Positions 152 to 35,853 of a DNA stretch of 36,398 nt are shown piece by piece. Below the pieces are notes generated by a model, which worked only from the letters and a program-made list of their open reading frames with translations, made no database searches and was not told the DNA's origin. Every line of letters starts with the position of its first letter. Within the stretch, counting starts at the first letter, position 1. This DNA is from a virus (taxonomy: Duplodnaviria; Caudoviricetes): positions 1 to 36,398 of the IMG/VR virus record IMGVR_UViG_3300005058_000167. One strand, 5' to 3'. The position numbers were made by a program, and so were the translations under genes.

Positions 152-670
152 TCAGCGACGACGGTTTATTACAGCGGTGAGATGGTCGGCAGTCACGTCG
201 CCGACCAATTGGCGATCACTTTCCGGGAAGCCAACAAGGGGGCGCGCGGGAAGGCCTGGGTGATTGACTCGCTTGCGGAACATGCCACCAAAACTGAGCG
301 CCTTTGCTTTCCGTGCCGTGATGACATGGGCGCGCGATCCGTCCTGGTGGAAGATGGCCTTGAATCCGTCGCCCTGGTCGAATCCGAGGCGCAGATTGTC
401 GCCCTGCACCTGGTAATGGAAATCGGCCAACATACGGCCGGTTTTGTTGAGTGGACCACCTTTGCGATCTCCGGCCGCGATGGTCGAGGCGGCCAACGGT
501 TCCCACGCCTTGCCCTCCGGATCGAGGCCTTGATCGTGGCGCTCCTGATTCACGCGAAACAGCGATTCGCCGATGCTGCCGAGCATTTCAGCCGGCGTGG
601 CGATCTCGCGGCGGACGGCTTCGAGAACAGCCGTCAGGTGGTCGGCTTGAAATTCAATGTCGAATTGCAT
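152..670 (-). CDS. Phage virion morphogenesis protein (Mu gpG-like)
   Basis: RHDQGLDPEGKAWEPLA, LNKTGRM, AIFHQDG, HPGLPARPLVG motifs; follows MuF. Confidence 0.88.
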   Translation of the reverse strand: MQFDIEFQADHLTAVLEAVRREIATPAEMLGSIGESLFRVNQERHDQGLDPEGKAWEPLAASTIAAGDRKGGPLNKTGRMLADFHYQVQGDNLRLGFDQGDGFKAIFHQDGSRAHVITARKAKALSFGGMFRKRVNHPGLPARPLVGFPESDRQLVGDVTADHLTAVINRRR

Positions 671-754
671 ATAGTTACCTCGCGGTTCAGTCAGACTGGC
701 TTCGGCCTACTGCCCCATATCTGATCCGTAAAGCGACGCGGCCCGATGGCCGCG

Positions 755-2023: not shown

Positions 2024-2025
2024 GG

Positions 2026-2532
2026 CTATGTCTTGCCGGTTTTAATGAAAACACCGCGATCGCTAAGTTTTCGCAGGGCGTCAGCGCAGTCATCGCCAAA
2101 AGCGAATAAGACGGTACCTGCACCGCACCGACTTTTCTTGTGCTGATTTTCCAGACCAGGAACGAATTCAATCCGACCCGATACGAACAGCATTGCGCTT
2201 GCGGATCTCATCGCGTCTTGGCACCAGCCTGCGTCCGTTCGACTAAAAACAAGAGCAATACCGTTTCCGTGCTCAGCCATCCTCTTTACCCACATCCCAG
2301 TATCTGGCCCATATGGCGGGTTCATCCAGACGCGGCCGAACCATGGTTTTTTCAGGCCATCATCGAAGACGGTGTATTTGGTCGTGGCCGGTACCGCTGT
2401 TTCCATGTCGTGTGGGCTTGATGGGTCAAGGTCGAACGTCAAGCCGAGGGCATCAAAAATCCAAGCTGGCGTGTACCACTCAACACTCTTATGAGCTGGT
2501 GCCGTTCTAGCCTCGCCGAACATTCCGCTCAT
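2026..2532 (-). CDS. dam: Phage DNA N6-adenine methyltransferase
   Basis: EWYTP, FDLDP, WMNPPYG motifs; ATG at 2532 overlaps portal stop (ATGA); target specificity not established. Confidence 0.85.
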   Translation of the reverse strand: MSGMFGEARTAPAHKSVEWYTPAWIFDALGLTFDLDPSSPHDMETAVPATTKYTVFDDGLKKPWFGRVWMNPPYGPDTGMWVKRMAEHGNGIALVFSRTDAGWCQDAMRSASAMLFVSGRIEFVPGLENQHKKSRCGAGTVLFAFGDDCADALRKLSDRGVFIKTGKT

Positions 2533-4088: not shown

Positions 4089-5853
4089 CCCACTCTTCGG
4101 AAAAGCCGCTGGTGAAGCCACCACGGCCGGTATTGCGTTGGTTCATGCGAGAAGTTCCGGCCGAGGTGTAAAGCCATTCGCCCGCGAACTGGTTGGCCAG
4201 GCGCCACAGCTTTTCCAGGGCGTCCGGGCCGTCGTCGTGGTCGGCTTCCGGCCAGAACTTCGTCTGCTCGATCATCACCGTCTGCGAGCGGTGCAGCCTG
4301 ATCTTGCCGTTTGCGAAGTGCGGCTGCAGGCTGATGATGCGCAGGTCTTTCTCGACGTTCTCCGGCATCGGGATGCCGGGGAAGGCAATGCCCAGCAGCG
4401 CCGCCCGCTTCAGCAGCTCGGTGTACATGAACTCCTGAAACTGCACCGTCTCGACGCCCCAGGCCAGGCACTGGTATTCCGCCTGCAGGTCGATGGCGCG
4501 ACTGATGATCAGGTCCGGCACGCGCTTGGCGATATCGGCCTCGACCACATCGAGCACCATCGTGTTGCGGTTCAGACCGCCGACCAGGATCGCCGAAGGG
4601 TCACGTTTCTTGCCCTGCTTGCCGAGCGAAGGATCAATGGCGCCGAAGAACAGCCAGTCCGCCCGCCGATCCACCCAGAACTGGATGTTCTTGAACGGCG
4701 CCGAATCATCGTTGCCGGCCTCGTTCTGCTGTTCCTGGTTGAACGCGTCGTGGTCGCTGGCGAACATGCAGAACAGCCGGTAGAGCGGCCGCACATCCGG
4801 CCACGACACCACAGCGCCGGCATCCATCGCCGCTTGGTTCGCCTGGTAGAAGGCCAGCGCCTCGGCCTCGGCCTTTTCCTGCGCTCCGTCTTCATCGCTG
4901 GCCGCTGCCGAGGTGTAGATGCCTTCCCACTGCTCCCACAGGTCCATGCGATCCGGCCATTTCATGATCGACTTGAACACCTTGCGCCGCCAGCCCGGCT
5001 TGCGCGAAACGCGGTTGATCGCCGCGTCGTAGTGCAGCGAGGTGCCGACCCAGAAGATATCCATCCCGCCCGCCGGCCCGGCCAGGCCGACCACGGCCTT
5101 GATCACGAAGTTTTGAACGGCGTCGCGCTGTTCCTTGTTGCGGACGTTCTCATCGTTTTCCAGATCGTCCAGGAAGATCAGGCCCGGCCGGTGCGGACCA
5201 TGGCGCATACCGCGCATCTTCTTGCCTACACCGCCGACGCGTACCTTGATGCCGTTGGCCGTGTGGATGGTCGCCGCCTGCCAGACGCGCCCACGGCCGA
5301 CCGCCTTGGGGAAGTCGGCCGCCAGGCGTGGGTTGCTGTCCAGCTCGGCCTTGATCGCTTCGAGCATTTCAATCGACTGCTCCAGCGTGTTCATGATGAT
5401 GCCGATCAGCCACTTGCGTGCCTTGGGGCTGGCGTGCGGGACCAGCTCAGCCAGATAGTTGGCCCGGCAGATGCACCACAAGCTGCCGAGCTGCGTTTCG
5501 TAGGTCGACTTGGCCTCGCCACGAGGCGCCTGATGCACTTCGCGGGCATCGGTCTGGCCGTCGATCCGCTCCGGGAAGCATTCGAAGATGAACTGGTGGA
5601 ACTGCGAGAAGTGCGGCGTCGGCACGTAGTGCGGGAAGTAGGTCTTGCAGAAAAACTCGTAATCGACCACCGCCCGCTCGCGCCGCGCCTTGCTCGCCGC
5701 CGGGTCGATGGGGAAGGCCTCGCACTCCAGCTCGATAGTCTGGCGCAACTCCTCGGCGAAGGATTCCATCCGGCGCTGAAAGTCGCCGAGGTTCTTCACC
5801 TCGGTCAGGTCTTCGTAGTCGTCGGTCCAGTCGAATTCACGCATGGTCGTCAC
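4072..5853 (-). CDS. Terminase large subunit
   Basis: Walker A APRGEAKST, Walker B IFLDDLE, nuclease motifs IDPS and HDDGPDALE. Confidence 0.93.
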   Translation of the reverse strand: MTTMREFDWTDDYEDLTEVKNLGDFQRRMESFAEELRQTIELECEAFPIDPAASKARRERAVVDYEFFCKTYFPHYVPTPHFSQFHQFIFECFPERIDGQTDAREVHQAPRGEAKSTYETQLGSLWCICRANYLAELVPHASPKARKWLIGIIMNTLEQSIEMLEAIKAELDSNPRLAADFPKAVGRGRVWQAATIHTANGIKVRVGGVGKKMRGMRHGPHRPGLIFLDDLENDENVRNKEQRDAVQNFVIKAVVGLAGPAGGMDIFWVGTSLHYDAAINRVSRKPGWRRKVFKSIMKWPDRMDLWEQWEGIYTSAAASDEDGAQEKAEAEALAFYQANQAAMDAGAVVSWPDVRPLYRLFCMFASDHDAFNQEQQNEAGNDDSAPFKNIQFWVDRRADWLFFGAIDPSLGKQGKKRDPSAILVGGLNRNTMVLDVVEADIAKRVPDLIISRAIDLQAEYQCLAWGVETVQFQEFMYTELLKRAALLGIAFPGIPMPENVEKDLRIISLQPHFANGKIRLHRSQTVMIEQTKFWPEADHDDGPDALEKLWRLANQFAGEWLYTSAGTSRMNQRNTGRGGFTSGFSEEWDDDDD

Positions 5854-6062
5854 CAGTCACGAGAGTCGAAACCGACCCAGCCGGCGATGCTATGAGCGAT
5901 GTTGCCCAGCTTGATCAGCGGCCACGTTACAAATACGGTCGTGAACAGAATTGGGGCGAGAAGAATGGCCAGAACAAAGCGTAGATGAGGGGCCCGCTTT
6001 TTCGATTTGAAGGCCCAGCGAAGAAGCGCTTTGCTGGGTTCGCCGTAGTAGTAGACGCGCAT
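5850..6062 (-). CDS. Small hypothetical membrane protein
   Basis: 70 aa, hydrophobic segment, ATGA-coupled to TerL, lower GC. Confidence 0.55.
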   Translation of the reverse strand: MRVYYYGEPSKALLRWAFKSKKRAPHLRFVLAILLAPILFTTVFVTWPLIKLGNIAHSIAGWVGFDSRDW

Positions 6063-6064
6063 GG

Positions 6065-6292
6065 CTATGGCAAATCCTTTTCAAGCATTGCTGCCAAATC
6101 CTGATTCGCCTTTCGGCATATGACTTCAAACCGTGACATGATTTTTTGTTCGCGATGCGTCCGTCTCGCCCTGTAGAACTTCCCGAAGTCGGCCATGCCT
6201 TCAACGTTCTTGGCGATGCTATCGGCCATCAATTGGTGCGCAACGACAGACAGCGCCTCTTCAGTGGCTGCGGAGAGTAGTGGCTTAGCCAT
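6065..6292 (-). CDS. Hypothetical protein
   Basis: ATG 6292 overlaps TerS end; tight packing. Confidence 0.55.
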   Translation of the reverse strand: MAKPLLSAATEEALSVVAHQLMADSIAKNVEGMADFGKFYRARRTHREQKIMSRFEVICRKANQDLAAMLEKDLP

Positions 6293-6779
6293 ACCGCTTC
6301 CCCAGCACCGCCCCGATATCCTCGACATGTGGCTGCAGCGCCCGCAGTGCGGCCGGGTCGGTTTTCTTCAAATACTCGGCGATGACCTTGAGCGTATCCA
6401 GTGCCACGGACAGCCCGGAAAACTGCGGATTCAACCGCCCAAAGGCCTTGCTGAACTTGGCGTAGCCATCGGCCAACTGGGCGAGCAGCGCGGCCTTGTC
6501 GCTGGCCGGAATCTTCGCTTCTTCCAGTTCCCGCGTGGTCGTGATCACCTGGCGGGCAAAGTCTTCGATGAGCTGCTTGTTCAGCTCGTCCATCCCTTGC
6601 TCGCTGATGCGGTAGGCGGCGCGAGCGGTGTCCCAGTCGTCGCCCTTCGCCTTGGCAATCCGCTTCCACTCGCGGGCCGTGTCGTAGCTGACACCGCAGG
6701 TGATGGCAGCACCGTTCAAGGGCATGCCCTCGATGTAGAGCTGCCGTGTCCGCTCGCGGGTTTCCTGGCTGTGGGCCAT
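6285..6779 (-). CDS. DUF1804-family protein, probable terminase small subunit
   Basis: MAHSQETR..., HTH GVSYDTAREWK, GDDWDTARAA; upstream of TerL. Confidence 0.85.
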   Translation of the reverse strand: MAHSQETRERTRQLYIEGMPLNGAAITCGVSYDTAREWKRIAKAKGDDWDTARAAYRISEQGMDELNKQLIEDFARQVITTTRELEEAKIPASDKAALLAQLADGYAKFSKAFGRLNPQFSGLSVALDTLKVIAEYLKKTDPAALRALQPHVEDIGAVLGKRYG

Positions 6780-6781
6780 GG

Positions 6782-7147
6782 TCAGATGCGCTTGATGATT
6801 TCGACAGCCGCAGCCGCCAGTGCGCCGCCCACACCGCCACCCAGCGCGCCGAGCTTGGCCGTTTTCTCGATCAGCTTCTTGTCCTCAACTTCCAGGTTGG
6901 TGACGCGGGTACCGAGGCCGTCGATGCGCTTGTTGACGTCTTCGCGCACCTGGTTGATCTGGCCGGTCAGGTTCTCCTCGATCCGCGTCATGCGTTCGCC
7001 CTGGGCCTGCTCCAGACGGCGGATATCGCCCTTGATGTCTTCGATGCGGGCGGTCAGGCCGGTATGCATGGCGTGCACGGCGCCAGTGAGCTGGCCGATG
7101 CTGTGCATGATCTGCGAGTTATCACGGCGGTCGTCTTGGGTAGTCAT
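6782..7147 (-). CDS. Coiled-coil protein with C-terminal hydrophobic anchor
   Basis: Heptad pattern, C-terminal GALGGGVGGALAAAAV; between spanin and TerS. Confidence 0.7.
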   Translation of the reverse strand: MTTQDDRRDNSQIMHSIGQLTGAVHAMHTGLTARIEDIKGDIRRLEQAQGERMTRIEENLTGQINQVREDVNKRIDGLGTRVTNLEVEDKKLIEKTAKLGALGGGVGGALAAAAVEIIKRI

Positions 7148-7662
7148 TTTTCTTGGTCCTCGGCGGTTTCAAAATCGATCAGTGCGCCGAGTCGGTCACG
7201 GCACGTGGCGTATTGGCGGATGGCGTGGTCGATCCATTCCGCGATGTCGGTATCGGTGGCAGCGGGGGCATCTTCAGCATCAGGCCGGCTGGCGGCTTCG
7301 GGCACGGCTGGGGGCTTGATACCGCCGGAACCGTTGAGCAGGCGGACAGTGCCAGCATTGAGACAAGGCCGGCCATGCGTAAGGCGTTTGATTTCACGGG
7401 AGTGCTCCTGGGCTTGGGAAAGTCGTTCCTGGTCGGCCGCTTCCAGTTGGCGCTGCAGGGCATTGGCCACCTGCTGGGCAGCGATCAGCTTGTCGCGGCT
7501 GTCGGTAGCCGCCTGGCGATCGGCCTCGGCCTGCGCTTTCTCCAGCTTGGCCACCTTGATGTCGCCCACGTAGAGGCCCATCTTCATGCCGAGCAGGAAG
7601 ACGCAGGCCAGCACGATCAGGGTGCAGAGAACGACGATTCCGCTGAGAATCTTGTCGGTCAT
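7144..7662 (-). CDS. Rz-like inner-membrane spanin
   Basis: N-terminal TM helix, coiled coil, C-terminal Cys; lysis cassette. Confidence 0.8.
   Translation of the reverse strand: MTDKILSGIVVLCTLIVLACVFLLGMKMGLYVGDIKVAKLEKAQAEADRQAATDSRDKLIAAQQVANALQRQLEAADQERLSQAQEHSREIKRLTHGRPCLNAGTVRLLNGSGGIKPPAVPEAASRPDAEDAPAATDTDIAEWIDHAIRQYATCRDRLGALIDFETAEDQEK
7179..7397 (-). CDS. Rz1-like outer-membrane lipoprotein spanin embedded in Rz
   Basis: GTG start with AGGAG 7 nt upstream; MKSNALRMAGLVSMLALSA-C lipobox; Pro-rich mature part. Confidence 0.8.
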   Translation of the reverse strand: MKSNALRMAGLVSMLALSACSTVPAVSSPQPCPKPPAGLMLKMPPLPPIPTSRNGSTTPSANTPRAVTDSAH

Positions 7663-7934
7663 GGCGCATCTCCAAACATTGATTCGATGCCGCCCATGGC
7701 TTCGCGAACCATGGAGACAGCCCTTTCCTGGGTGATCTCCTCGAAGGCCGTATCAGCCTTGGATTCGCCATCATCGTCATCGGTGTAACCGATCCTGAAT
7801 TGACATAAGCCGAGACCATCAACGCCGGGATAGAAATGGAACGCGATCTCAGGGCCTTCATCGCTGCTCTGGCGCATAACAAGCACCTGGCCGCGTTCCG
7901 TTTCATACAGCTTGGCAAAGGGCTTCATACGCAT
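7659..7934 (-). CDS. Hypothetical acidic protein within lysis cassette
   Basis: Overlaps both endolysin and Rz; exact start uncertain. Confidence 0.65.
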   Translation of the reverse strand: MRMKPFAKLYETERGQVLVMRQSSDEGPEIAFHFYPGVDGLGLCQFRIGYTDDDDGESKADTAFEEITQERAVSMVREAMGGIESMFGDAP

Positions 7935-8575
7935 ACCCCTTTTCCCCAGGCCGTATAGGCCGGCTGCAGCACTTTGATGATCCGCTTCGGGTAACCGCGA
8001 TTTTCAGCAAAGGCTCCCTGGCTGCGGCCCGCGTTGAATCGTTCCACCTGCCCCCACCAGCGCGTTCGAATGCCACCCGAAGCCTGCGTCAGTGCCTTGT
8101 CCTTCAGCAACCAGCCCAGCCCGCCGTTGTAGGCTGAGAGCACCATGGCTATGCGTTCGCAATCGTTCTCGGCCGCGGTGCGTTCCCACAACCATCGGTC
8201 GTAGGCCGTCAGGGCACGCAAGGCCCAGACAGGGTTATCCGGCTGGCGCTGTGCTAGCTCCGGTACGATGCCGCCAATCCAGTCTGCCGTGGCCGGCATG
8301 AACTGGGCGAGGCCCTTGGCACCGACGCGGGAGACAGCACGGGCATTCCAGCCGGATTCCTGATGCACCTGGGCGGCAAAGGTGGCAATGGGCGCATCCA
8401 GCCCCCACGCCAGGCGCGCATTGCGCGTCAGCTCGCCCCGGTACTGTTGTGCAGACTGCGGCACTTCGGCCGCCTGCAGGTGGCCGGAGAGCAGACCACC
8501 GACCAGGCAGAGCACGGCCACCAGCAACGTGGCCAGCAGTTCCTGCCGTTGTTCCAACGTCCAGCGCCCGAACAC
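7925..8575 (-). CDS. SLT-family lytic transglycosylase endolysin
   Basis: QVHQES catalytic Glu, GLAQFMPATA, SAYNGG; N-terminal hydrophobic signal/SAR. Confidence 0.92.
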   Translation of the reverse strand: MFGRWTLEQRQELLATLLVAVLCLVGGLLSGHLQAAEVPQSAQQYRGELTRNARLAWGLDAPIATFAAQVHQESGWNARAVSRVGAKGLAQFMPATADWIGGIVPELAQRQPDNPVWALRALTAYDRWLWERTAAENDCERIAMVLSAYNGGLGWLLKDKALTQASGGIRTRWWGQVERFNAGRSQGAFAENRGYPKRIIKVLQPAYTAWGKGVCV

Positions 8576-8577
8576 GA

Positions 8578-8940
8578 TCAGGCTCCCAGACCCATGGCCA
8601 GCATGGCACAGCCGACGATGATGGATCGTCGCAGCATGGCAATGCCGAAGAGATGCGCCGTAGCGCTATCGCCCATATCCCAGGGCGGAAGGGTGAAATT
8701 GACCTCGGTGCTCGCCGGGTCGCAGAAGTCGAAATCACCGTCGCAGGTTTCGCCCATGAAGGCATCCGGCCGGGCATAGGGGAACAGCGAACGGTCAAGC
8801 CAGTAACCCACCACACCGGCCATGCTGACCAGGGAGAGCTTGTACAGGCTGACCGGCAACTGCTGCGGCGCGAGCAGGCCGATGATGCAGACAAGCATGA
8901 TGGTGGCGATCAGCCACCCGAAAAGGCGGGGAGGTTTCAT
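8578..8940 (-). CDS. Putative holin
   Basis: Three hydrophobic segments, GYWLDRSLFPYARP motif, upstream of endolysin, AGGAG RBS. Confidence 0.85.
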   Translation of the reverse strand: MKPPRLFGWLIATIMLVCIIGLLAPQQLPVSLYKLSLVSMAGVVGYWLDRSLFPYARPDAFMGETCDGDFDFCDPASTEVNFTLPPWDMGDSATAHLFGIAMLRRSIIVGCAMLAMGLGA

Positions 8941-8979
8941 TGCGCAAACTCCTGGTCAGGTTGGTCAAGGTACGACCGG

Positions 8980-9027
8980 AGTTTGCGCGTGCGCGCGAGG
9001 GCTGCTTAGGCTGGAAACGTTTCCAGC
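8980..9027 (-). promoter_or_regulatory. Late promoter 1 (lysis/packaging arm): activator dyad + -10
   Basis: Perfect palindrome GCTGGAAACGTTTCCAGC 9010-9027, 24 nt, then CAAACT (8985-8980). Confidence 0.75.
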
Positions 9028-9045
9028 TACGGGGTTACGGGATGA

Positions 9046-9073
9046 TCAGTCACGTCCATTGGGTCGTGACTGA
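9046..9073. terminator. Hairpin downstream of repressor-linked operon
   Basis: TCAGTCACG/CGTGACTGA 9-bp stem; no clear U-tract on the minus strand. Confidence 0.4.
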
Positions 9074-9083
9074 ACAAAACGCA

Positions 9084-9677
9084 TCAGTTGTTCTTGTTCT
9101 CTGGGAGGTCGAACATTCCGACAAGATGGACTGCGTGTGCGATGCCGCCAACGCTATTCGCATAATGCTGCTGACCGGTGACAATTCCACAGAACTTGGC
9201 TCGACTGTTCGCCACAATTTCACCCGTCGAGCGAACGGCTACGAACCGGTAAAGCTGGCCAGCATCGTTGTACATGCCACCAAGGAACACCTTTCCGCCG
9301 GGAACTGTGTTGTCTACTGAGATTTCGATGACCCTTCCCCCGGTACAGATTCTGCTGCCCCGCTGAGAGTTGGAGTCCTTCATCACCATTGCGTATTTAC
9401 CAGCCGGTATTTCTTGAAGCTCTGACCATTTCATCCTGTCAATGCTCCACAGCGCCAGTGCTGCAGTGCCTTGATCGAGATTTTCATCAGGCTTGTCTGT
9501 CATATATAGACGTGTGGCTGCAATTGCCGCTCTCAAGGTTTCTGGTTGGGGAGGAGCAGGAGCAGAAACCGGAATTTTCTGTTCAGAATTACCCGCTGAT
9601 TTCGTGGGTTCTGAACCTTGAGGACTACAGGCAGCCAACATAGCGCATGCAGCAAGGAAGGTAACGACGGCTCTCAC
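9084..9677 (-). CDS. Accessory lipoprotein
   Basis: Lipobox MLAA-C; lower GC; co-oriented with repressor. Confidence 0.75.
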   Translation of the reverse strand: MRAVVTFLAACAMLAACSPQGSEPTKSAGNSEQKIPVSAPAPPQPETLRAAIAATRLYMTDKPDENLDQGTAALALWSIDRMKWSELQEIPAGKYAMVMKDSNSQRGSRICTGGRVIEISVDNTVPGGKVFLGGMYNDAGQLYRFVAVRSTGEIVANSRAKFCGIVTGQQHYANSVGGIAHAVHLVGMFDLPENKNN

Positions 9678-9688
9678 GATTTTCCCCT

Positions 9689-10468
9689 TTAATTTTCCAA
9701 AAATAGGCCATAGCTCCGACCTTGCTTGACGCGCTTGATATCGCCGATTATCTCTGCGTAGTACATCACATACCGAAACCGCTCGACATCAAACTCAGGA
9801 AACCCTTTCGCCAGGCTTGACTGGATCACGCCAGGGCGTGACTCGACAATCGGCATGACCACTGCCATCACCTCGGTGTAGTATGGATCGGCGCGCATCA
9901 GCCCCGCTAGCAAATGATCATAGGCTGCAGTGGCTTCGGGCAGCGCATTCTCTTCACGCATCCGGAAACCGACTGCGCGTAGCTCTTGCCGGGCCGCCTC
10001 AAAGTCGAGCCGTAGCCAATGTCGGCGCACTGTATCGAACTGGCGCTGCCAGTAGTCATCGATTTCGACCCCGGTTTCGATCCATGCAGCCCTGGCACGA
10101 ACCTTCGAAGCGAGAGTTGGATGCACCGCTCCGATCCGCAACGCGATGCCTCGTAGCCATGTTTGAGCTGATCTGCTGGTTTTGTGAATCCGTTCTCTGG
10201 CCACCTCTGGTCCGATGGCATTCTCGATTGTGCCACGCTCGCTTTCGGTCAGAGACTCCTGCCACCACTCTGCCAGATCGAAATAATCAATCAGTCCGGA
10301 TGGCGTGTCATCGACGTTGACGGCGCCCAGTGTCGTGATGTGCAAGTTCTGAATCACCACGGTATTCGTGCCACAAAGTTGGCCGATCAGGCCGGTGATG
10401 TTGGTGCTATTGACGATGTCGCCTATGGCGGCTTGTGCGCCCTTATCAGCCGCTGCTTTGTTCCCCAT
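9689..10468 (-). CDS. Accessory hypothetical protein, possible C-terminal winged-HTH
   Basis: Start overlaps repressor 3' end; C-terminus RPGVIQSSL...IKRVKQGRSYGLF. Confidence 0.7.
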   Translation of the reverse strand: MGNKAAADKGAQAAIGDIVNSTNITGLIGQLCGTNTVVIQNLHITTLGAVNVDDTPSGLIDYFDLAEWWQESLTESERGTIENAIGPEVARERIHKTSRSAQTWLRGIALRIGAVHPTLASKVRARAAWIETGVEIDDYWQRQFDTVRRHWLRLDFEAARQELRAVGFRMREENALPEATAAYDHLLAGLMRADPYYTEVMAVVMPIVESRPGVIQSSLAKGFPEFDVERFRYVMYYAEIIGDIKRVKQGRSYGLFLEN

Positions 10469-10907
10469 TTGTTCCCCTGTTGACGATCTTCTTTCCCGCT
10501 GCCTGCGCATTTCTCCCGGTCGCAGTTACGGTGATTTGTGTCTGCTTTGCTTCAGCAGCTTTTTCTTTGATTTTTTTCTGTACTTCCAGCGGCCCTGATT
10601 CCGTAAGAACAAAGGCCAGCATCCGTCTTCGGGTCGGCACGTCGAGTGCGCGATAACCGTCGAGCAAGATCATTTCATCCGAAGCAAGCGCCGAGTTGGA
10701 GCGAATGCCGGTCAGGATGTACTGAGCATCCGCACCCGCCTGGGCGAACAGGAACAGCACGTCGCCACCCATCGCCGCCTTGGCGCGCTCGTACTTTCCC
10801 CACATCTCGCGACTGACGCCGCAAGTGCTTCCAGCCTGCTCCTGGCCAAGCTTCAAGCGCTTCCTTTCCTCGGCGATCCGAGGTGCACAAACAATACAAA
10901 AATCCAC
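10446..10907 (-). CDS. XRE-family phage repressor
   Basis: RIAEERKRLKLGQ...GVSREMWGKYER, GADAQYILTG; divergent from ner; GTG 10907 start preferred over TTG 10925. Confidence 0.88.
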   Translation of the reverse strand: MDFCIVCAPRIAEERKRLKLGQEQAGSTCGVSREMWGKYERAKAAMGGDVLFLFAQAGADAQYILTGIRSNSALASDEMILLDGYRALDVPTRRRMLAFVLTESGPLEVQKKIKEKAAEAKQTQITVTATGRNAQAAGKKIVNRGTNGEQSSG

Positions 10908-11253: not shown

Positions 11254-12492
11254 ATGAGTAATTCACCCGTCAAATACCGCCACCCCGGAAATCACGAACT
11301 GGAATGGAGTGGCAAGGGTCGTCAGCCGAAGTGGGTTGAGGCATACCTGGCCAATGGTGGATCGATGGTCAGCCTGGATGTGTCCGTGCAGCTCCGGGAC
11401 GAAATGGAGCAGCTTGAAGATGCGCTCGATGCTGCCGAAATGGAATCTGATGGTATCGACCTCGGCATCGGCGACAGCTCGCCGGCCGTGTTCGAACCGA
11501 ATTACCAGATCGTTGCCGACACTAGCACCGATGAGGCGCGGCAGAGTATTGCCCGAGATGCCGCTATGTTGATTCCCGATGAATCATCCAGCCAGCAGGT
11601 ATCGCAGTTGGCTAAAGAGATTGGTTATAACGGCTCCCCGACCATCGGTTCGCTGGAAGACGAGATTCGGTTTTATCAGCGCCGTACAGTGGAGGCATGC
11701 CTGGAGCTGGGTAAAAGGCTGCTGCTCCTTAAAGCCATGACGCCGCATGGTGAATTTGAAAAGCGCCTCTCGCTGCTCGGCATTGAAAACACCAAGGCGC
11801 AGCGCTTTATGAAAGCGGCTGGAGCTACAGCCAAAAGCAGCAATTTGCAGCTTTTGAGCGATAAAACAAAATCGTTTTCTGCGTTTTTTGAAATCGTGAT
11901 GACCGACGATGAGGTAGTTGAAAACATCCTGGAATGGGATGACGTTGACCGTCTCTCCGCCAGCCAGCTCAGGGCGCGGGTAAGAGAATATGAACAGTCG
12001 ATAAACCGCCTTCAAACCGACCTTAATACGGCGCAATCGCGGCTTTCTGCCGAAGCCAAGACTCTGCCACCGCCGCTATTGTCGAGAGAGGTTGATAAGC
12101 AGATTCAGTCTGCCCTGAATGCTGAAGCCATGGGAGCTGCGGCGGTTGATCTGCTGAATCGGCAGATCAGCGATATGGCCGCTGGCGGTGACTTCCTGGC
12201 GGAACGCGCTGCAACGCTGCATAGCTGCTTGTGCGCGCTGGCCTCCCGAGTGTCTGTGGCTTTCAGCGCCTTGCAGGCGGTCGCCGACGACTGCGATGTA
12301 AGCCTGCCGAAACGCCCTCAAATGGTGGTCAGCGAGGAGATGGCAAGGGAGTACCTGGCCGCTCATACGGGATACATCGAAACGGCTATCGAGCTTGTAC
12401 AGAAACAGCAGATTGCCCGTGGGGAGGTGCTTGGGCGCGGGCGTGGCCGACCGGCGGGAAGCAAGAACAATCGAAAAGCAGGGGAAGCGTGA
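11254..12492 (+). CDS. H-NS DNA-binding domain / DUF3102-like / AT-hook fusion protein
   Basis: N-term KYRHP..WSGKGRQPKWV; central ELGKRLLLLK..HGEF..AQRFM; C-term GRGRP. Confidence 0.8.
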   Translation: MSNSPVKYRHPGNHELEWSGKGRQPKWVEAYLANGGSMVSLDVSVQLRDEMEQLEDALDAAEMESDGIDLGIGDSSPAVFEPNYQIVADTSTDEARQSIARDAAMLIPDESSSQQVSQLAKEIGYNGSPTIGSLEDEIRFYQRRTVEACLELGKRLLLLKAMTPHGEFEKRLSLLGIENTKAQRFMKAAGATAKSSNLQLLSDKTKSFSAFFEIVMTDDEVVENILEWDDVDRLSASQLRARVREYEQSINRLQTDLNTAQSRLSAEAKTLPPPLLSREVDKQIQSALNAEAMGAAAVDLLNRQISDMAAGGDFLAERAATLHSCLCALASRVSVAFSALQAVADDCDVSLPKRPQMVVSEEMAREYLAAHTGYIETAIELVQKQQIARGEVLGRGRGRPAGSKNNRKAGEA

Positions 12493-23868: not shown

Positions 23869-24231
23869 ATGGCACAACTGAACAACATCCGCACCGTCAG
23901 CGTGCCCAGCATTGGCAAGCTGCCCCTGGCCGACAAGGGCAGCACCTTCGTGCCGAGTGGCGTGCAGCGCACCCACAAGCCCGGTCGCCTGGCCAGCGAT
24001 GGCGGCTACACCGAGGGCGAGCTGCCGGCCAAGCTGGACCTGAGCATCAACCTACAGGGCGGCATTGACCACGCGGCAATCAACGCCATCAAGGATGAGG
24101 ATGTCACGATCCGCCTCGCCGATGGCCAAGTGCACATGATGAGCCTGGCGTTCGTCACCGAGCCGCTGGCCGTGGGTGACGGTGAAGGCAAGATCGTCAT
24201 CATGTCCAACACCTCCGAGCGGATCGCCTGA
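23869..24231 (+). CDS. Tail tube protein (Mu gpM-like)
   Basis: Follows sheath; size; AAGGAG RBS. Confidence 0.85.
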   Translation: MAQLNNIRTVSVPSIGKLPLADKGSTFVPSGVQRTHKPGRLASDGGYTEGELPAKLDLSINLQGGIDHAAINAIKDEDVTIRLADGQVHMMSLAFVTEPLAVGDGEGKIVIMSNTSERIA

Positions 24232-24233
24232 TC

Positions 24234-25118
24234 ATGACTGCGACCAACGACGGGATCATTCACCTGCGAGGGAAGATCGAGGGGGGCAAGCTGGTCGCCC
24301 TCCTGGATCACCAGGGACAGGAATTGGGCGGGCCGGTTACGTCGAAGCTGAACGAGGTCACCGGGAGGATTAAAATCACAGGCGTCAATCCTGTGTCCTA
24401 CCTTGGCAAGCCGTCCGCCATGTTTGTCGGCGACAGCCTCATGGACCAGTGCTTTATCCCTAGCACCTCGTCGCGTTCAGCGCGGGACTGGATCATGCAA
24501 GCCGATGCTGAATTGGGCGGCGTGCTCGGTCGAGTATTTGACGCCGGAGTATCTGGCGACAATTCAAGCGAAATCCGCGCCAACCTCGCGGCATCGCTGG
24601 CGACTAATAATCCGGCCATCGTCATCTTTGGACCTATCTCGGTAAATAGCATCGGCGACGGCATCACGGCAGAGCAAAACATCGCCGACCTGCAATGGAT
24701 GTACGACACAGCGATTGCTTACCCGAGCGTCGTGCAGGTGTTTATCTCGACGGTGCATACGCCGACGGCTCAATCTACTGTTGCCGCGTCGCGCCGCTGG
24801 TTGGCTACGGTCAATGCTTTTGTCGAGGCATACGGGGCCGCGAAAAATATCCCTGTTATCCCGTTCGCTCGGCAATTTACGTCGCAGACATCGGGCGGCG
24901 CGAAGACCAATCTTTCGCCGGACGGCACGCATTTGACCTACAGAGGCGCTTACGAGATGGGCGTCAATCAGGTCAAGCCTGTCTTGCGTCCGCTGGCTGT
25001 CGCGCCGTGGTCAATGCCCCGTGGCGCGCTCAATCACCTCAATCTGCTCGGACCTGCAGCGGCTCTGCAAGGTGACATGCAGGTGGTGCAAACAACACGG
25101 CGATCAATGCGGGTATGA
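24234..25118 (+). CDS. SGNH/GDSL esterase-domain protein (N-terminal part of a probably frameshifted gene)
   Basis: VGDSL, GVSG, SVN, DGTH blocks after a ~48 aa leader. Confidence 0.8.
   Translation: MTATNDGIIHLRGKIEGGKLVALLDHQGQELGGPVTSKLNEVTGRIKITGVNPVSYLGKPSAMFVGDSLMDQCFIPSTSSRSARDWIMQADAELGGVLGRVFDAGVSGDNSSEIRANLAASLATNNPAIVIFGPISVNSIGDGITAEQNIADLQWMYDTAIAYPSVVQVFISTVHTPTAQSTVAASRRWLATVNAFVEAYGAAKNIPVIPFARQFTSQTSGGAKTNLSPDGTHLTYRGAYEMGVNQVKPVLRPLAVAPWSMPRGALNHLNLLGPAAALQGDMQVVQTTRRSMRV
24363..24383 (+). repeat. Left imperfect inverted repeat, candidate recombination site
   Basis: GGGAGGATTAAAATCACAGGC vs reverse complement of 25808-25828, 13/21. Confidence 0.45.
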
Positions 25119-25813
25119 CCGGGACTGCCCCTAATGCCGTATTTGCGCGCCGAAACACTGGCGACGGTGCGTCGTCTGGCGTGTGTAGCGTCGTCACTGG
25201 CGCGGTGTCTGACCTAGATACTGTATCTGCTCAATGCGCCGTCACTGTCGGCGTCGCCGGTTCTGGCGCTGGATTTACCATCGGTCACGAGCAGACGGCC
25301 CGCAACCGCTACGACAATGCTCGGTCGAATAGCCAAGCCTACGGCTACGGAGAACGCTACGCGATCAGCGCAACGCTCGTCGCGCAGGTCTATACCCCCG
25401 GCACAAGTGCTGCCTCTGCTCCGGATGTCTCGGCCCTTGTTGCTGGCGATACCTTTGCCGATGGCACAGCAGTGTTTTTGGTCACTGAGCGCCCGATGCC
25501 GGGTGATCTTGTCGAGATTTGCGTCGATTGCGGTCTGTCATCGATCACGAACGGAATGAATGTCGGCGTCTGGGTCAACATCACCGACACAACCGGCGCG
25601 CAGACCAATACCTACATCAACTGGGGTAACAACACCGCAGAGGGTCCGTGGCCTACCCGCGTCGATTCCGAGCGCCGGCTGATGCGCCACTTTTTCACGC
25701 TTCCGACTGCTGCACCGGCCATCCGCAATATCGCCGTGATGACTATGGGGCAGGGTCCGGTCGGAGGCACGGGCACTATCAAGCTGCACGGTGTATCAAT
25801 CGCTAAAGCCTGA
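25115..25813 (+). CDS. Beta-rich hypothetical protein, probable C-terminal part of the SGNH protein
   Basis: Frame is open upstream (AGGANNTAINAG-MTGT); no RBS before its ATG. Confidence 0.65.
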   Translation: MTGTAPNAVFARRNTGDGASSGVCSVVTGAVSDLDTVSAQCAVTVGVAGSGAGFTIGHEQTARNRYDNARSNSQAYGYGERYAISATLVAQVYTPGTSAASAPDVSALVAGDTFADGTAVFLVTERPMPGDLVEICVDCGLSSITNGMNVGVWVNITDTTGAQTNTYINWGNNTAEGPWPTRVDSERRLMRHFFTLPTAAPAIRNIAVMTMGQGPVGGTGTIKLHGVSIAKA

Positions 25814-25828
25814 TTTAGTGATCCCCTC
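25808..25828 (-). repeat. Right imperfect inverted repeat, candidate recombination site
   Basis: Reverse complement GAGGGGATCACTAAATCAGGC; spans cargo stop, 5 nt before recombinase ATG. Confidence 0.45.
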
Positions 25829-25833
25829 TTCAC

Positions 25834-26757
25834 ATGGCTTTCGCTGACATCCTGATCCGCTCGACCCTCGGCATCGTATCGCCGAGGTATCGGACGGTCG
25901 CTGACTGGGCTGAGGTGTATCGGCGGATCGTCGATACTAAGCCGATCTGCGACAAGACGAAGGCGAATCGTCGGGTCAGCGTGCGGCACATCGTTTCGGT
26001 GCTCGGGCCTCGTGTCATTTCCCGGGTGCTGCCGCATGAGATCGCCGAGCTGGTACAGCGCATTCATGCCATGCATCCGGCGCTTGCCAAGCGGGTCTTG
26101 ATCGAAGCCAAGAACCTGTTCAACGAGGCGGTCATCTATGGATGGTTGGACCGCAACCCGGCATTTCCGCTGAAGGCACCGGCCGTGCAGGTGCAGCGGC
26201 ATCGCTTGTCCCTGGAACACTGGCGCGCCATTCATGCTTACGCGGTGGCGCATCAGCCGCCCTGGGTGTCCAGGATGCTGGTGCTTGCCCTGGTGTCTGG
26301 CCAGCGGCGGTCTGACCTGGGCAAGATGCAGGCGGGCGATGTGTGGGATGGCTTTCTGCATGTGCAGCAAGCAAAGACCGGCATGCGCCTGGCGCTGCCG
26401 CTGACGCTGCGCCTGGAAGCGCTTGGCGTCAGCCTCGGCGAGGCGATTGATGATTGCCGGGGCTACGCTGTCGGCAGTGGTCGGCTGCTGCGCAAGCACA
26501 ATGGGCGGCCTATCGGCCTGGCCTCGATGTCGGCCCGGTTCGAGCAGGCCCGTGAAGGCGCAGGGCTGGTCTGGTCGGGTGGATTGCCGCCGTCGCTGCA
26601 CGAGTGCCGTTCGCTGTCTGAACGTTTGTACCGTGCCCAGGGCATCAACACCATGGTGCTGCTCGGCCACCGTCACCAGTCGATGACCGACCTGTACGAC
26701 GATGCCCGCGATCTCGAGGACGGCCGGACCGGCTGGAAGCATCTGGACGTTGCCTGA
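25834..26757 (+). CDS. Tyrosine recombinase, lambda-Int-like, lacking the arm-binding domain
   Basis: SGQRRSD (R), QAKTG (K), HECR (HxxR), LLGH, MTDLY (Y); core-binding domain begins ~15 aa from the start. Confidence 0.92.
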   Translation: MAFADILIRSTLGIVSPRYRTVADWAEVYRRIVDTKPICDKTKANRRVSVRHIVSVLGPRVISRVLPHEIAELVQRIHAMHPALAKRVLIEAKNLFNEAVIYGWLDRNPAFPLKAPAVQVQRHRLSLEHWRAIHAYAVAHQPPWVSRMLVLALVSGQRRSDLGKMQAGDVWDGFLHVQQAKTGMRLALPLTLRLEALGVSLGEAIDDCRGYAVGSGRLLRKHNGRPIGLASMSARFEQAREGAGLVWSGGLPPSLHECRSLSERLYRAQGINTMVLLGHRHQSMTDLYDDARDLEDGRTGWKHLDVA

Positions 26758-27125
26758 TGGTTCGCTTTCTGATCGGCCTGTGCCTGCTGGCTGCCTTCGT
26801 CATCTGGATGGCCGAGAAGAAGGTTCGCCGCTTCTTCGGCCTGCCGACTGGGGAGAACTGCGCTACCTGGGCGGCCGATCATTTTGACTACGATGGCGGC
26901 GATGGCCTGGTGTTTCACCGGACGGTGTCCGAGTCGAAGCTGCGCTTTCCGCACGTCGTCATCATGCGCGGCGCCCGCCAGGCTGAGCGCCAAAGCATCG
27001 AGCTGATCGAGTATGTGCCCAAGGTTCGCATCATGGGCAAGCAGATTCCACCGCGCCATTTCGATGGCGTGGTCAAGCGGCGGCGCTACGTTGCCGATCA
27101 TCATCACCAACCCTCTGGAGAATGA
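26757..27125 (+). CDS. Hypothetical protein with N-terminal membrane anchor
   Basis: TGATG-coupled to recombinase; N-terminal hydrophobic helix. Confidence 0.7.
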   Translation: MVRFLIGLCLLAAFVIWMAEKKVRRFFGLPTGENCATWAADHFDYDGGDGLVFHRTVSESKLRFPHVVIMRGARQAERQSIELIEYVPKVRIMGKQIPPRHFDGVVKRRRYVADHHHQPSGE

Positions 27126-27126
27126 C

Positions 27127-27423
27127 ATGTCCGTCCTACGCCTCAAGCACCCGATCCAGATCGGCAAAACGACCATCGACAAGCTGACCTTCCGTGACTA
27201 CACGACGGCCGGCGACTACCTTTCTTTCGACCAGCGCGGTGGCGTGGCCCAGCGTATCTCGCTGATCGCCAGCCTGACCGGCACCGATGAAGCGCTGATC
27301 AAGCAGTTGCGCGGTCCGGATTACCGTAAGGCCGAGAAGATCGCCGATGACCTGATCAATGCCGATGAGGAAGGCGATGACCAGGGCGAAGGCGGTGCTG
27401 AAAAAAAGTCGTCCGAATCCTGA
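27127..27423 (+). CDS. Tail assembly chaperone (Mu gp41-like)
   Basis: LKHPI, LTFR..TAGD, LIASLTG; GGAG RBS; before tape measure. Confidence 0.85.
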   Translation: MSVLRLKHPIQIGKTTIDKLTFRDYTTAGDYLSFDQRGGVAQRISLIASLTGTDEALIKQLRGPDYRKAEKIADDLINADEEGDDQGEGGAEKKSSES

Positions 27424-34006: not shown

Positions 34007-34581
34007 TCCTGGCAGCGCATTCCGCCCGTGATTTTGCCGAGGCGTTCAAGGCCTTGCTTCCCCCGGGCGCGGCCTGGGAATGGCCGGTTGGTGGCGTTGG
34101 CGATGCGCTGTTGCTGGCTACGGGTGAGGAGCTGGCGCGGATCGATGCTGCTACACAGGGAGTACTCGACCGGGCGATTGACGTGCATCGCCCGAAGACG
34201 AGCAGTTGGCACATCAGCGAATACCGCCGCGTGGCCAGGGAGGCCTTGGGCGACTTGGTCGAGGAAATGCCACGCCGCACATTCGCAGTGGGTTCGACGG
34301 TGGGTGATCGCGTCTGGAGCAGCGCTGCACCTGGCGAGACATTCCCGGTCGATCTGGTTCGCGTCGAGCATCTGCTGCAGCCGCTGCATGTGGGCAGCCG
34401 GGTCGGTGATCGGCTCTATGAGCCGGCCAGCCGCTACGTGGTCCGGGTGTATTACTACCGTTCAGTGGTCAATCCCGATGTTCTGTTCGCCGCGCTGAAC
34501 GATTTCAAGCAGGCGCATGTGCGTCTGCACTTCATCGATATAACCGGAGTAGCTGGAGAGGTTGACTATGGACAGGATTAA
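34003..34581 (+). CDS. Baseplate wedge (Mu gp48/DUF2313-like)
   Basis: ALLPPGAAW, ELARID, KQAHV. Confidence 0.8.
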   Translation: MILAAHSARDFAEAFKALLPPGAAWEWPVGGVGDALLLATGEELARIDAATQGVLDRAIDVHRPKTSSWHISEYRRVAREALGDLVEEMPRRTFAVGSTVGDRVWSSAAPGETFPVDLVRVEHLLQPLHVGSRVGDRLYEPASRYVVRVYYYRSVVNPDVLFAALNDFKQAHVRLHFIDITGVAGEVDYGQD

Positions 34582-35383
34582 CGGAGCAGGCCACGTCGGG
34601 CATTTGTTCGTTGCTGAGGATGCATCGATCAGTCGACCGCCGACCGAGATTACGGCCGAGTGGCTTAATGGGGTACAGGAAGAATTGGTGAAGGTTATTG
34701 AGGCGGCAGGAATAGCGCCAAGCGGCAGTGATTTTGATCAGTTGGTCCGGGCGATCACAAAAGTAAAGGGTTGCCAACGATTCACTGCGAACGGCAATTT
34801 CTCTGTTCCTCAATGGGTGACGACGATCTACGTGTCGGCGTGTGCAGGAGGTGGCGGCGGCGGCGGGGCTCCACCGGGATCGTCCGGTGTCGGCAGCGGT
34901 GGAGGTGGAGGCGGTGCCGGGCAGTCGATTATTCGGCAGCCGTACGCGGTTACTCCAGGTGATGTCATAGCCGTGACAATTGGCGGCGGTGGGCTTGCAG
35001 GAGGAATATCCGGCAATGGCGGCGCCGGAGGTAATACGGTCATTGGTGCGCTCGTCACGCTGTTCGGCGGCCTCGGCGGATTGGCTGGTGTCAATGTTCT
35101 ACAGCCGGCCGCTGGTGGCGGATATGGGGCTGGCTACCCTAACGGCGGGTACGGATCGGATTCCGCAAATGCCTCTGGTGCAGATGGTGGGGTCGGTGCA
35201 CATTCCCCATTTGGCACTGCTGGCGGCATGTCTCGCGGTTCTACGGGGGGGGGGGTCGCTGGGATGCCGGGTTATGGATATGGTGCTGGCGGCAGCGGCG
35301 CTGGCGGGTACTTTATCTCCGGTTCAGGCATCGGCGCCGCTGGCGCAGCAGGCATGCCCGGTATCGTCATTATCGAGTGGTGA
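34568..35383 (+). CDS. Glycine-rich tail fibre protein
   Basis: EWLNGVQEEL..VIEAAGI..DQL N-terminal anchor; Gly-rich domain ending GIVIIEW. Confidence 0.85.
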   Translation: MDRINGAGHVGHLFVAEDASISRPPTEITAEWLNGVQEELVKVIEAAGIAPSGSDFDQLVRAITKVKGCQRFTANGNFSVPQWVTTIYVSACAGGGGGGGAPPGSSGVGSGGGGGGAGQSIIRQPYAVTPGDVIAVTIGGGGLAGGISGNGGAGGNTVIGALVTLFGGLGGLAGVNVLQPAAGGGYGAGYPNGGYGSDSANASGADGGVGAHSPFGTAGGMSRGSTGGGVAGMPGYGYGAGGSGAGGYFISGSGIGAAGAAGMPGIVIIEW

Positions 35384-35385
35384 AA

Positions 35386-35853
35386 ATGAAACTAGCTTAT
35401 TTTGATCCTGCAAACGGTAAGGTGCTTCAGTGGATCGACACCGACGAAATGGCCTATGTCCTGCCGGACGAGTCAATGCTTTATGAATGCAGCGCTACAG
35501 AGTGGGAGGCGCGGCACGATGGCGAAATGATAGTAAAAGATGGCGCCTTAAGGCCGTATATCGGCGATGAAATGACGTCAACTAGAGCGCAGATCATCGC
35601 ACGTTATGAGGCGGCTCTTGATGTTTACCTCGACTCCGTAGCGCAGATGCACCGCTATCGCGACCGCGTGACTTTCGCGTTGCGTTCCGGTTACGCTGGA
35701 CCATGGCAGGAGGAGGGAACTGCATTTGCCATCTGGATGGACGCGTGCAACCTGCAAGCCTTTCAGTTACTCGAAAATGTTTTGGCGGGAAACGCCGAAC
35801 TTCCGACCATCGAAGATTTCATTGGTGGGTTGCCGACTTTCGTACTGCCATGA
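35386..35853 (+). CDS. Probable tail fibre assembly protein
   Basis: Follows fibre; YLDSVAQ, EGTAFAIWMDAC, FIGGLP. Confidence 0.65.
   Translation: MKLAYFDPANGKVLQWIDTDEMAYVLPDESMLYECSATEWEARHDGEMIVKDGALRPYIGDEMTSTRAQIIARYEAALDVYLDSVAQMHRYRDRVTFALRSGYAGPWQEEGTAFAIWMDACNLQAFQLLENVLAGNAELPTIEDFIGGLPTFVLP

What the first reader, a model, noticed from the sequence alone, without database searches (positions are those of the whole stretch)
24234..27125. Arm-less tyrosine recombinase + IR-bounded esterase cargo inserted in the tail operon: candidate cassette swap/inversion system
Seen: tube and chaperone genes, normally adjacent in Mu-like phages, are separated by ~2.9 kb. It contains a ~48-aa leader with phage-typical codon use (...SKLNEVTGRIK), fused in frame to an SGNH esterase/beta-domain cargo with visibly different codon use (more A/T third positions). 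Then come a recombinase with all catalytic residues (R-K-HxxR-H-Y) and a coupled membrane-anchored ORF. The cargo is bounded by imperfect inverted repeats (24363-24383 and 25808-25828, GnGnGGATYA-N6-CAGGC): one at the leader/cargo junction, one at the cargo stop. Known: Mu-like phages integrate via the DDE transposase and need no integrase; Mu uses the serine invertase Gin for host-range switching; lambda Int needs its arm domain for directional att recombination; virion SGNH esterases can deacetylate surface polysaccharides. Inference: the recombinase exchanges, captures or flips variable enzymatic modules behind a constant virion-attachment leader, giving a diversification system distinct from Gin and DGRs.
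Basis: partly seen in the sequence, partly recalled or inferred. Interest (0 to 1): 0.88.

Follow-up and report, generated by a model that had tools for sequence, protein, structure and literature searches.

The report
Phage cassette-swapping system for surface enzymes
Many unrelated bacteriophages, this one included, carry a sugar-modifying enzyme domain between two short standard DNA sites, relatives differ exactly between those sites, and a trimmed-down integrase next door likely swaps these domains between phage genomes, which would be a previously undescribed way for phages to trade predicted host-recognition parts.

Summary
The insertion is real, but the claimed inverted repeat (13/21 matches) is at chance level by itself and inversion is not supported. 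The cargo lies between two palindromic recombination-type cores with the same arms and DIFFERENT 7-bp spacers: site A (24350-24372), in frame after a 41-aa leader, and site B (25819-25841), at the cargo stop and overlapping the integrase ATG. Relatives of this phage in five studies match up to 24374-24376, resume at 25821 and carry other cargos; two contigs bridge the replacement. The A-cargo-B layout recurs in 88 non-redundant cassettes of unrelated phages, mostly without the integrase, including cultured Curvibacter phage P26059A. One cargo is 91% identical behind two unrelated leaders. The recombinase is a conserved ~305-aa lambda-Int relative lacking the arm domain. Best reading: a natural recombinase-mediated cassette exchange (A x A, then B x B, in trans) that swaps glycan-active domains between phages. 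Catalysis by this enzyme and virion location are inferred, not shown. The window's cargo is split by a frameshift, and the membrane ORF is not part of the system. The scan noted the same idea earlier on other DNA (e1-5264775). Closest analogues: Acinetobacter dif modules, Rin shufflon.

The parts
24234..24356 (+). Constant 41-aa leader (platform side), predicted virion anchor
   Evidence: 12 proteins share this leader and diverge right after the V/F-T-G junction; GC3 0.81. Anchor role inferred: other leaders are Phage_cement_2 domains.
24350..24372 (+). Site A: palindromic core, 7-bp spacer TCACCGG at 24358-24364, read in frame as V-T-G-R-I; left arm degenerate here
   Evidence: junction Thr-Gly codons ACC GGG in 18 of 19 against 9 of 145 elsewhere; relatives stop matching at 24374-24376.
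24357..25118 (+). Cassette, 5' part: SGNH/GDSL esterase domain (GDS at aa 66, DGTH at aa 230)
   Evidence: Pfam PF13472 E 1.5e-15; PHROG lipase/esterase; motif positions.
25076..25813 (+). Cassette, 3' part in another frame (frameshift between 25076 and 25118; assembly error or real break): Gly/Thr/Ala-rich beta domain, possibly a carbohydrate-binding jelly roll
   Evidence: Frames; all 11 other proteins with this leader are 471-864 aa, read-through here would be about 525 aa; atlas hits to CBM_4_9-like clusters are below the tool's bar, lead only.
25819..25841 (+). Site B: palindromic core, 7-bp spacer TCTTCAC at 25827-25833; right arm overlaps the recombinase start codon
   Evidence: Only hit of the B matrix in the whole window; found upstream of 37 of 59 recombinase genes against 0 of 57 controls; relatives resume matching at 25821.
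25834..26757 (+). Arm-less lambda-Int-like tyrosine recombinase, 307 aa, full catalytic set
   Evidence: Pfam PF00589 + PF22022; 501 relatives, best 120 all 280-320 aa; invariant catalytic residues; profile matches lambda Int 74-350 at E 2e-57.
26757..27125 (+). 122-aa ORF with N-terminal hydrophobic helix; platform-specific passenger, not a core part
   Evidence: Present in 4 of 94 recombinase loci; no Pfam or PHROG hit.
23869..24231 (+). Tail tube gene (upstream context)
   Evidence: Pfam PF10618.
27127..27423 (+). Tail assembly chaperone (downstream context)
   Evidence: Pfam PF10109.

Best explanation
The enzyme domain lies between two palindromic DNA sites with different 7-bp spacers, relatives differ exactly between these sites, and the adjacent arm-less integrase likely swaps the segment between co-resident phage genomes by recombining A with A and B with B. 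Shown: site architecture, in-frame junction, replacement of the cassette in close relatives, sharing of cassettes between unrelated phages, tight linkage of the recombinase to site B. Inferred: (1) the recombinase binds the shared arms and cuts at the edges of the 7-bp spacer as lambda Int does; (2) because A and B spacers differ, the cassette can be neither excised nor inverted in cis; (3) when two genomes meet in one cell (co-infection, or superinfection of a lysogen), one crossover at A makes a cointegrate or hybrid and a second at B resolves it with cassettes swapped; (4) the new cargo is fused in frame to the resident leader and ends at B; (5) phages without the gene use enzyme supplied in trans; (6) the fusion protein is a virion-displayed, glycan-modifying receptor-binding or barrier-clearing enzyme, so swaps would alter host range.
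For: Own platform: contigs from runs of five studies match the window up to 24374-24376 and/or from 25821 and run on in other DNA; two single contigs bridge both junctions with other sequence between; none of the 8 runs laid covers the cargo. Twelve proteins share the leader; among their cargos BLASTP finds one clear pair and one weak 61-aa match. Other phages: site A upstream of B on the same strand in 34 of 60 loci against 0 of 60, 0 of 59 and 0 of 59 in controls, and the frame through A stops at B in 26 of 34; reciprocal scan 35 of 47 against 0 of 43 upstream (11 of 23 after removing loci holding the exact B pattern). Identity between pairs ends on the last base of a spacer (L062/L066, L065/L125 at B; L118/L149 at A) and L126/L138 share both flanks but not the cargo. 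39 of 120 internal alignment ends fall at sites whose windows cover 0.45% of positions (pairs are redundant). P0130 (this leader family) and L095 (unrelated phage and leader) share a cargo at 91% from the junction to the last residue. Synonymous constraint at A: 18 of 19 against 9 of 145. A and B spacers never match, direct or inverted (0 of 120). Mirror symmetry of both sites centres on a 7-bp spacer, the geometry of lambda/HK022 att cores (PMC7736782, passages). Cargo: 17 of 60 SGNH plus cellulase and deacetylase hits; upstream neighbour is a virion morphogenesis gene in 39 of 75; SGNH receptor-binding proteins are active esterases in other phages (PMC13123978, passages).
Against: No recombination was observed or assayed. 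Most A/B phages lack the recombinase: 6 of 120 B loci have it adjacent (40 had only 300-nt flanks), 8 of 9 near-complete records have no match and the ninth only a weak one, and it is internally deleted in two close relatives (my reading of loose ends) and in L095. B spacers vary at positions 3-4 even between phages of one platform, which strict lambda-type homology would not tolerate. The left arm of A in the window is degenerate. 22 of 59 recombinase loci lack a B site, including all 8 of a reverse-oriented subgroup. The B matrix was trained on 26 of the loci it scores, and spacer tallies are partly circular. Only one full-length cross-platform cargo pair was found, at protein level. 38 of 60 cargos have no Pfam hit. 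No proteomics places any cargo on a virion; in P26059A the two units lie away from annotated structural genes in the 8 kb examined.
Confidence: 0.72

Rival explanations
1. The sites are real exchange points but another activity uses them (a host or other phage recombinase, or short-homology recombination by phage annealing proteins at conserved boundary sequences); the adjacent arm-less enzyme is a passenger or only a DNA-binding regulator.
For: Most phages with A/B sites lack the gene; it decays repeatedly; about 20 bp of conserved sequence at both cassette ends would also focus homology-driven crossovers; B spacer variants coexist in one platform.
Against: Palindromic arms with 7-bp spacers fit a lambda-type enzyme; the gene sits directly behind B in 37 of 59 loci across unrelated phages with invariant catalytic residues; dif-type sites have 6-bp spacers (PMC13141974).
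Confidence: 0.15
2. Integron-like capture: cassettes are excised as circles by A x B recombination with relaxed spacer homology and integrated at an empty site.
For: Both spacers begin with TC; small extra genes sit between directly repeated B sites with identical spacers in L004 and L242, which looks like circle integration at B.
Against: A spacer stays TCACCGG and B stays TCWKCAC at their own ends (partly circular; independent for A); no hybrid or empty A/B junction was met in any locus examined; cassettes carry no attC-like long hairpin that I noticed (not tested formally).
Confidence: 0.07
3. An independent integrative element (cargo plus integrase) inserted into the tail operon with ordinary attL/attR.
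For: A relative leaves the window's sequence at the end of the tube gene, so phages without the whole insert exist (X9); the enzyme is a close lambda Int relative.
Against: No second site or conserved motif downstream of the gene; leader and recombinase stay with the platform while only A-B changes; no conserved chromosomal copy of B (20 of 301 genomes match the pattern, none of the 20 with site A within 1.5 kb).
Confidence: 0.04
4. Inversion switch (Gin- or Rin-like) that flips the cargo.
For: The inner arms of A and B are inverted relative to each other; Rin is an arm-less tyrosine recombinase beside a receptor-binding gene (PMC6109161).
Against: Spacers differ by 3-6 bases in inverted orientation in 120 of 120; no inverted state in 60 + 47 loci or in contigs laid; no silent alternative cargo.
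Confidence: 0.02

Closest known systems
dif modules / pdif sites of Acinetobacter plasmids (PMC13141974, passages read)
   Same: Modules bounded by tyrosine-recombinase core sites; recombination needs matching spacers; a single module is replaced through cointegrate formation at one site pair and resolution at the other; enzyme acts in trans.
   Different: Host XerC/XerD, 6-bp spacers that vary freely, inversely oriented sites, whole accessory genes on plasmids. Here: a phage-encoded single lambda-Int relative, 7-bp spacers fixed as two types across unrelated phages, one site inside a reading frame so that a protein domain is swapped.
Rin shufflon of Bifidobacterium prophages (PMC6109161, passages read)
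   Same: Arm-less tyrosine recombinase next to a receptor-binding gene with one site inside the gene and one just after its 3' end; constant N-terminus, variable C-terminus.
   Different: Rin has identical asymmetric 11-bp rix repeats, a local array of silent variable segments and works by inversion in cis. Here there is one cassette, two non-matching palindromic sites, no silent array and variation comes from other genomes.
Engineered RMCE (heterospecific sites; HK022 Int version in PMC7736782, passages read)
   Same: Two incompatible sites flank a cassette; two crossovers in trans exchange it; 7-bp overlap between palindromic arms sets compatibility.
   Different: Laboratory design with arm-bearing Int and attP/attB pairs; here a natural, arm-less, apparently symmetric version.
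Lambda integrase and att system (PDB 1Z19/1Z1B)
   Same: Core-binding and catalytic domains (residues 74-350), catalytic residues, site geometry.
   Different: No arm-binding domain, no attP arms or attB found, gene sits in the late operon of a phage that integrates by MuA transposition.
Integrons (recalled, no call)
   Same: Recombinase gene beside a site at which variable cassettes arrive; occasional extra genes between repeated B sites.
   Different: Cassette is replaced, not stacked; in-frame fusion; enzyme is lambda-Int-like, not IntI.

Membership tests
Tyrosine recombinase (lambda Int-like) | Catalytic R-K-H-x-x-R-H/W-Y set in a core-binding plus catalytic fold | tested here: met
Lambda-type prophage integrase system | N-terminal arm-binding domain | tested here: not met
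   Profile aligns to lambda Int 74-350 only; best 120 relatives are 280-320 aa.
Lambda-type prophage integrase system | attL/attR direct repeats with identical overlap around the element and a chromosomal attB | tested here: not met
   One B hit in the window; spacers differ; no conserved chromosomal B in 301 genomes sampled.
Shufflon / invertase (Rin, Gin) | Inverted sites with matching crossover sequence | tested here: not met
   0 of 120 A/B pairs match in inverted orientation.
Shufflon / invertase (Rin, Gin) | Silent alternative C-termini and inverted states among relatives | tested here: not met
   contigs drop rare variants, so rare inversions are not excluded.
dif module system | XerC and XerD boxes with 6-bp spacer | tested here: not met
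   Sites are symmetric about a 7-bp spacer; 6-bp spacer stated in PMC13141974. No direct comparison with Xer box sequences was run.
dif module system | Module replacement between matching left and right spacers | tested here: met
   (as inferred from genome comparison, as in the paper).
Integron | IntI-type integrase and attC hairpin cassettes | tested here: inconclusive
   Enzyme's best structural relatives are lambda Int; no Rfam hit in the window; attC folding was not tested.
Natural RMCE (proposed) | Enzyme recombines A x A and B x B but not A x B | not testable with these tools
   Needs a recombination assay.
Virion SGNH esterase / tailspike | SGNH fold with catalytic Ser and Asp-x-x-His | tested here: met
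   Pfam PF13472; GDS and DGTH motifs.
Virion SGNH esterase / tailspike | Present on the virion and active on host glycan | not testable with these tools
   Only context.

The most novel reading that the evidence does not exclude
A community-wide 'plug standard' among phages of freshwater and wastewater bacteria (Betaproteobacteria where a host is named): two universal heterospecific sites let myo-, sipho- and podoviruses, temperate and lytic, exchange virion-displayed glycan enzymes in frame, with a minority of phages supplying a dedicated arm-less lambda-Int-derived recombinase as a public good. This would be a natural RMCE system with its own enzyme and a new route to host-range change beside inversion, DGR mutagenesis and homologous recombination.
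Probability: 0.6. Interest if true: 0.93.

Novelty: categorically new. Interest (0 to 1): 0.87.

Why it matters
How unrelated phages exchange the enzymatic ends of receptor-binding proteins so precisely is usually put down to chance or short-homology recombination. Here is a named enzyme, two defined 23-bp sites, a large natural cassette library (61 cargo clusters among 88 cassettes) and a cultured phage carrying two such units, so the question becomes directly testable. If right, it is a new diversification mechanism and a small, accessory-free recombinase with two natural orthogonal sites for cassette exchange. The chemistry (tyrosine recombination, spacer matching) is known and dif modules use the same two-step logic; the system as a whole fits no described family in the searches run.

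Tried and rejected
Search for relatives of the window's own SGNH cargo in viral contigs: none; longer relatives of the 3' part: none; so the frameshift could not be checked by homology, and none of 8 runs laid covers the cargo. Structure prediction was not obtained. Atlas search of the 3' part gave only sub-threshold leads. Chromosomal attB: rejected. Recombinase in cultured phages: only ordinary integrases below 60% identity, 35-39% in the 25 of 78 rows listed; none in plasmids at E 1e-60; none in P26059A. No sigma-70 promoter in 24100-27300, no Rfam family in the window. Reverse-oriented recombinase subgroup: standard A/B sites not found. Membrane ORF as a coupled component: rejected. Literature searches (listings and abstract starts only) returned no description of this system; the library lacks most subscription papers and bioRxiv supplements were not seen. 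Look-ups of earlier findings by sequence and place returned nothing.
Full report
Observation. The window is a virus record of a Mu-like transposable phage. Between tail tube (23869-24231) and chaperone (27127-27423) lie ORF-A 24234-25118 (SGNH domain, Pfam E 1.5e-15), ORF-B ending 25813 in another frame (open from 25076), a 307-aa tyrosine recombinase 25834-26757 and a 122-aa ORF. GC3 is 0.81 in the leader and 0.67/0.65 in the cargo. The stated inverted repeat has 13 of 21 matches; 11-91% of 1000 random region pairs reach that, depending on search width. Alone it is chance.

The recombinase. It has 501 relatives at E up to 0.001; the best 120 are all 280-320 aa, so loss of the arm is a family trait and not a local truncation. 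R159, K181, R259, H279 and Y288 are invariant in 46 aligned sequences and H256 nearly so. The profile matches lambda Int residues 74-350 at E 2e-57. In cultured phages only ordinary integrases were found (78 records, all under 60% identity).

A shared neighbourhood. Loci were fetched from viral contigs (37), genomes (19, mostly Dechloromonas, Azonexus, Rhodoferax, Denitromonas, Zoogloea) and metagenomes (37). In most, the gene follows a long gene that differs from locus to locus. Of 38 such genes scanned, 12 hit SGNH, 3 polysaccharide deacetylase, 1 SASA, 1 rhamnosidase, and 3 begin with a Phage_cement_2 domain. Two DNA motifs recur. Site B lies at the cargo stop just before the recombinase start: 26 of 46 loci by pattern, 37 of 59 non-redundant loci by matrix against 0 of 57 downstream controls (the matrix was trained on 26 of these loci). 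Site A lies at the leader/cargo junction, read as V/L-T-G-x-I. It is constrained as DNA: with junctions chosen by peptide only, Thr-Gly is ACC GGG in 18 of 19 against 9 of 145 other Thr-Gly pairs in the same 31 genes. A is found upstream in 20 of 33 co-oriented loci against 0 of 33 on the other strand.

The sites without the enzyme. An exact B pattern gave 120 viral loci; only 6 have the recombinase next to it (40 had short flanks). Among 60 non-redundant loci with at least 2.5 kb upstream, 34 have site A on the same strand, against 0 of 60, 0 of 59 and 0 of 59 in three controls, and the frame through A stops at B in 26 of 34. The reciprocal scan with an A pattern (60 loci) finds B downstream in 35 of 47, 0 of 43 upstream, and 11 of 23 when loci with the exact B pattern are removed; three opposite-strand hits are codon repeats. 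A and B spacers match in 0 of 120 pairs, direct or inverted. The 88 non-redundant cassettes fall into 49 leader clusters and 61 cargo clusters. Of 60 further cargos 17 hit SGNH, one each cellulase, deacetylase, CotH, fn3 and cement, and 38 nothing. The upstream neighbour is a virion morphogenesis gene in 39 of 75 (several unrelated portal and capsid families), another named gene in 5, unknown in 8 and without hit in 23. Whole records mostly lack the recombinase: 3 of 35 match (a positive control, a 27-aa remnant, a weak hit), and 1 of 9 near-complete ones, that being the weak hit.

Breakpoints. Pairs with the same platform lose identity at A and regain it at B (L126/L138, L118/L149, L003/L040, L004/L041, L170/L270); pairs with the same cassette end are identical up to the last spacer base of B and unrelated after it (L062/L066, L065/L125). 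39 of 120 internal alignment ends lie at sites, whose windows cover 0.45% of positions; the other 81 are mostly ordinary mosaic ends and the reverse-oriented subgroup, and pairs are redundant. For the window itself, eight runs were laid. X2 and X10 (one study) match to 24375 with 5 differences each and continue in other DNA; X3 stops at 24374 and resumes at 25821; X1 resumes at 25821 with 177 other letters before; X5 and X6 each have one contig joining 24376 to 25821 through other sequence. X4 is uninformative, X9 leaves at the end of the tube gene, and no run covers the cargo. In X5 and X6 the loose ends show the recombinase internally deleted (my reading). Twelve proteins carry this leader and diverge right after the junction. 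One of them, P0130, shares its cargo at 91% to the last residue with L095, a phage with unrelated leader, portal and capsid genes. The cultured lytic siphovirus Curvibacter phage P26059A has two complete units and no recombinase (PMC5964084, passages, where the term mass spectrometry does not occur).

Mechanism. Shown: architecture, in-frame junction, replacement, cross-phage sharing, linkage. Inferred: the arm-less enzyme treats the sites as simple cores; spacer mismatch blocks excision and inversion in cis; A x A then B x B between two genomes in one cell swaps the cassette; enzyme can come in trans; the product is a virion-displayed glycan enzyme. Spacer identity as the compatibility rule, and 7-bp overlaps between palindromic arms, are described for HK022/lambda Int and for engineered RMCE (PMC7736782, passages). 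SGNH receptor-binding proteins are active esterases in Klebsiella prophages and phage G7C (PMC13123978, passages). Against: no activity shown; frequent absence and decay of the gene; variation at B spacer positions 3-4 within a platform; degenerate left arm of A here; 22 of 59 recombinase loci without B; no virion data. I give 0.72 to this reading, 0.15 to another activity using the sites, 0.07 to circle capture, 0.04 to an independent integrative element (no conserved chromosomal B in 301 genomes) and 0.02 to inversion.

Comparison. It works most like single dif-module replacement through a cointegrate in Acinetobacter plasmids (PMC13141974, passages) but is not a member: phage enzyme, 7-bp spacers, two fixed spacer types, in-frame domain swap. 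It is laid out like the Rin shufflon (PMC6109161, passages; paper named by an earlier scan note) but lacks matching inverted sites and silent segments. It is not a lambda-type integration system. Searches (listings only) found no description; searches supplied the comparators; PMC12115436 (passages) was irrelevant. Coverage of the library is partial.

Verdict. Real feature, partly misdescribed; a two-site cassette-exchange system with strong comparative support and an untested catalyst. Interest 0.87; new as a system, familiar as chemistry.

Noticed in passing
window 25076-25118: Frameshift splits the cargo gene into an SGNH part and a beta part; assembly error or real break is undecided.
   Followed up: partly
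L295 (KY981271.1 78123-82620): Cultured lytic siphovirus P26059A carries two complete leader-A-cargo-B units with 75% identical leaders and unrelated cargos; the second A spacer differs by one base; no recombinase in the genome.
   Followed up: partly
L024-L029, L037, L049, L054, L072-L077: Subgroup in which the recombinase and an ~80-aa gene face against the phage operon; the cargo still ends at a B-like left arm but the spacer differs, possibly an orthogonal site set.
   Followed up: partly
L004:5442-6136; L242; L014: Small extra genes lie between two directly repeated B sites; the end of the L004 unit is 99.5% identical in L009 and L060 in front of different recombinase alleles.
   Followed up: partly
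L115:491-717 and L010:26-247: A 222-nt segment running from a B site to an A site (the leader itself) is 99% identical in two loci, so B-to-A segments may be exchanged as well.
   Followed up: no
L060 / P0010: Recombinase looks chimeric: N-terminal half like L004, C-terminal half like P0020 (by eye).
   Followed up: no
L046:5463-6434: A reverse transcriptase gene (Pfam RVT_1) lies two genes upstream of a family recombinase without a clear B site.
   Followed up: no
L051, L052, L057, L058: Several distant copies (about 45% identity) of the recombinase in one genome bin, some in inverted pairs, without A/B sites.
   Followed up: no
window 152-10510 (minus) and 11254-36398 (plus): Divergent gene order with portal, terminase and lysis genes leftward and transposase, capsid and tail rightward; resembles B3/BcepMu-type transposable phages (name recalled, no call).
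   Followed up: no
window 755-2023 (minus): Mu gpF-like minor head protein fused to a PBECR2 nuclease domain.
   Followed up: no
window 11254-12492: 412-aa early gene with an N-terminal H-NS C-terminal-like domain.
   Followed up: no
window 34562-35853: Tail-fibre-like and following genes have the lowest GC3 measured (0.56, 0.57), a second likely variable region without A/B sites.
   Followed up: no
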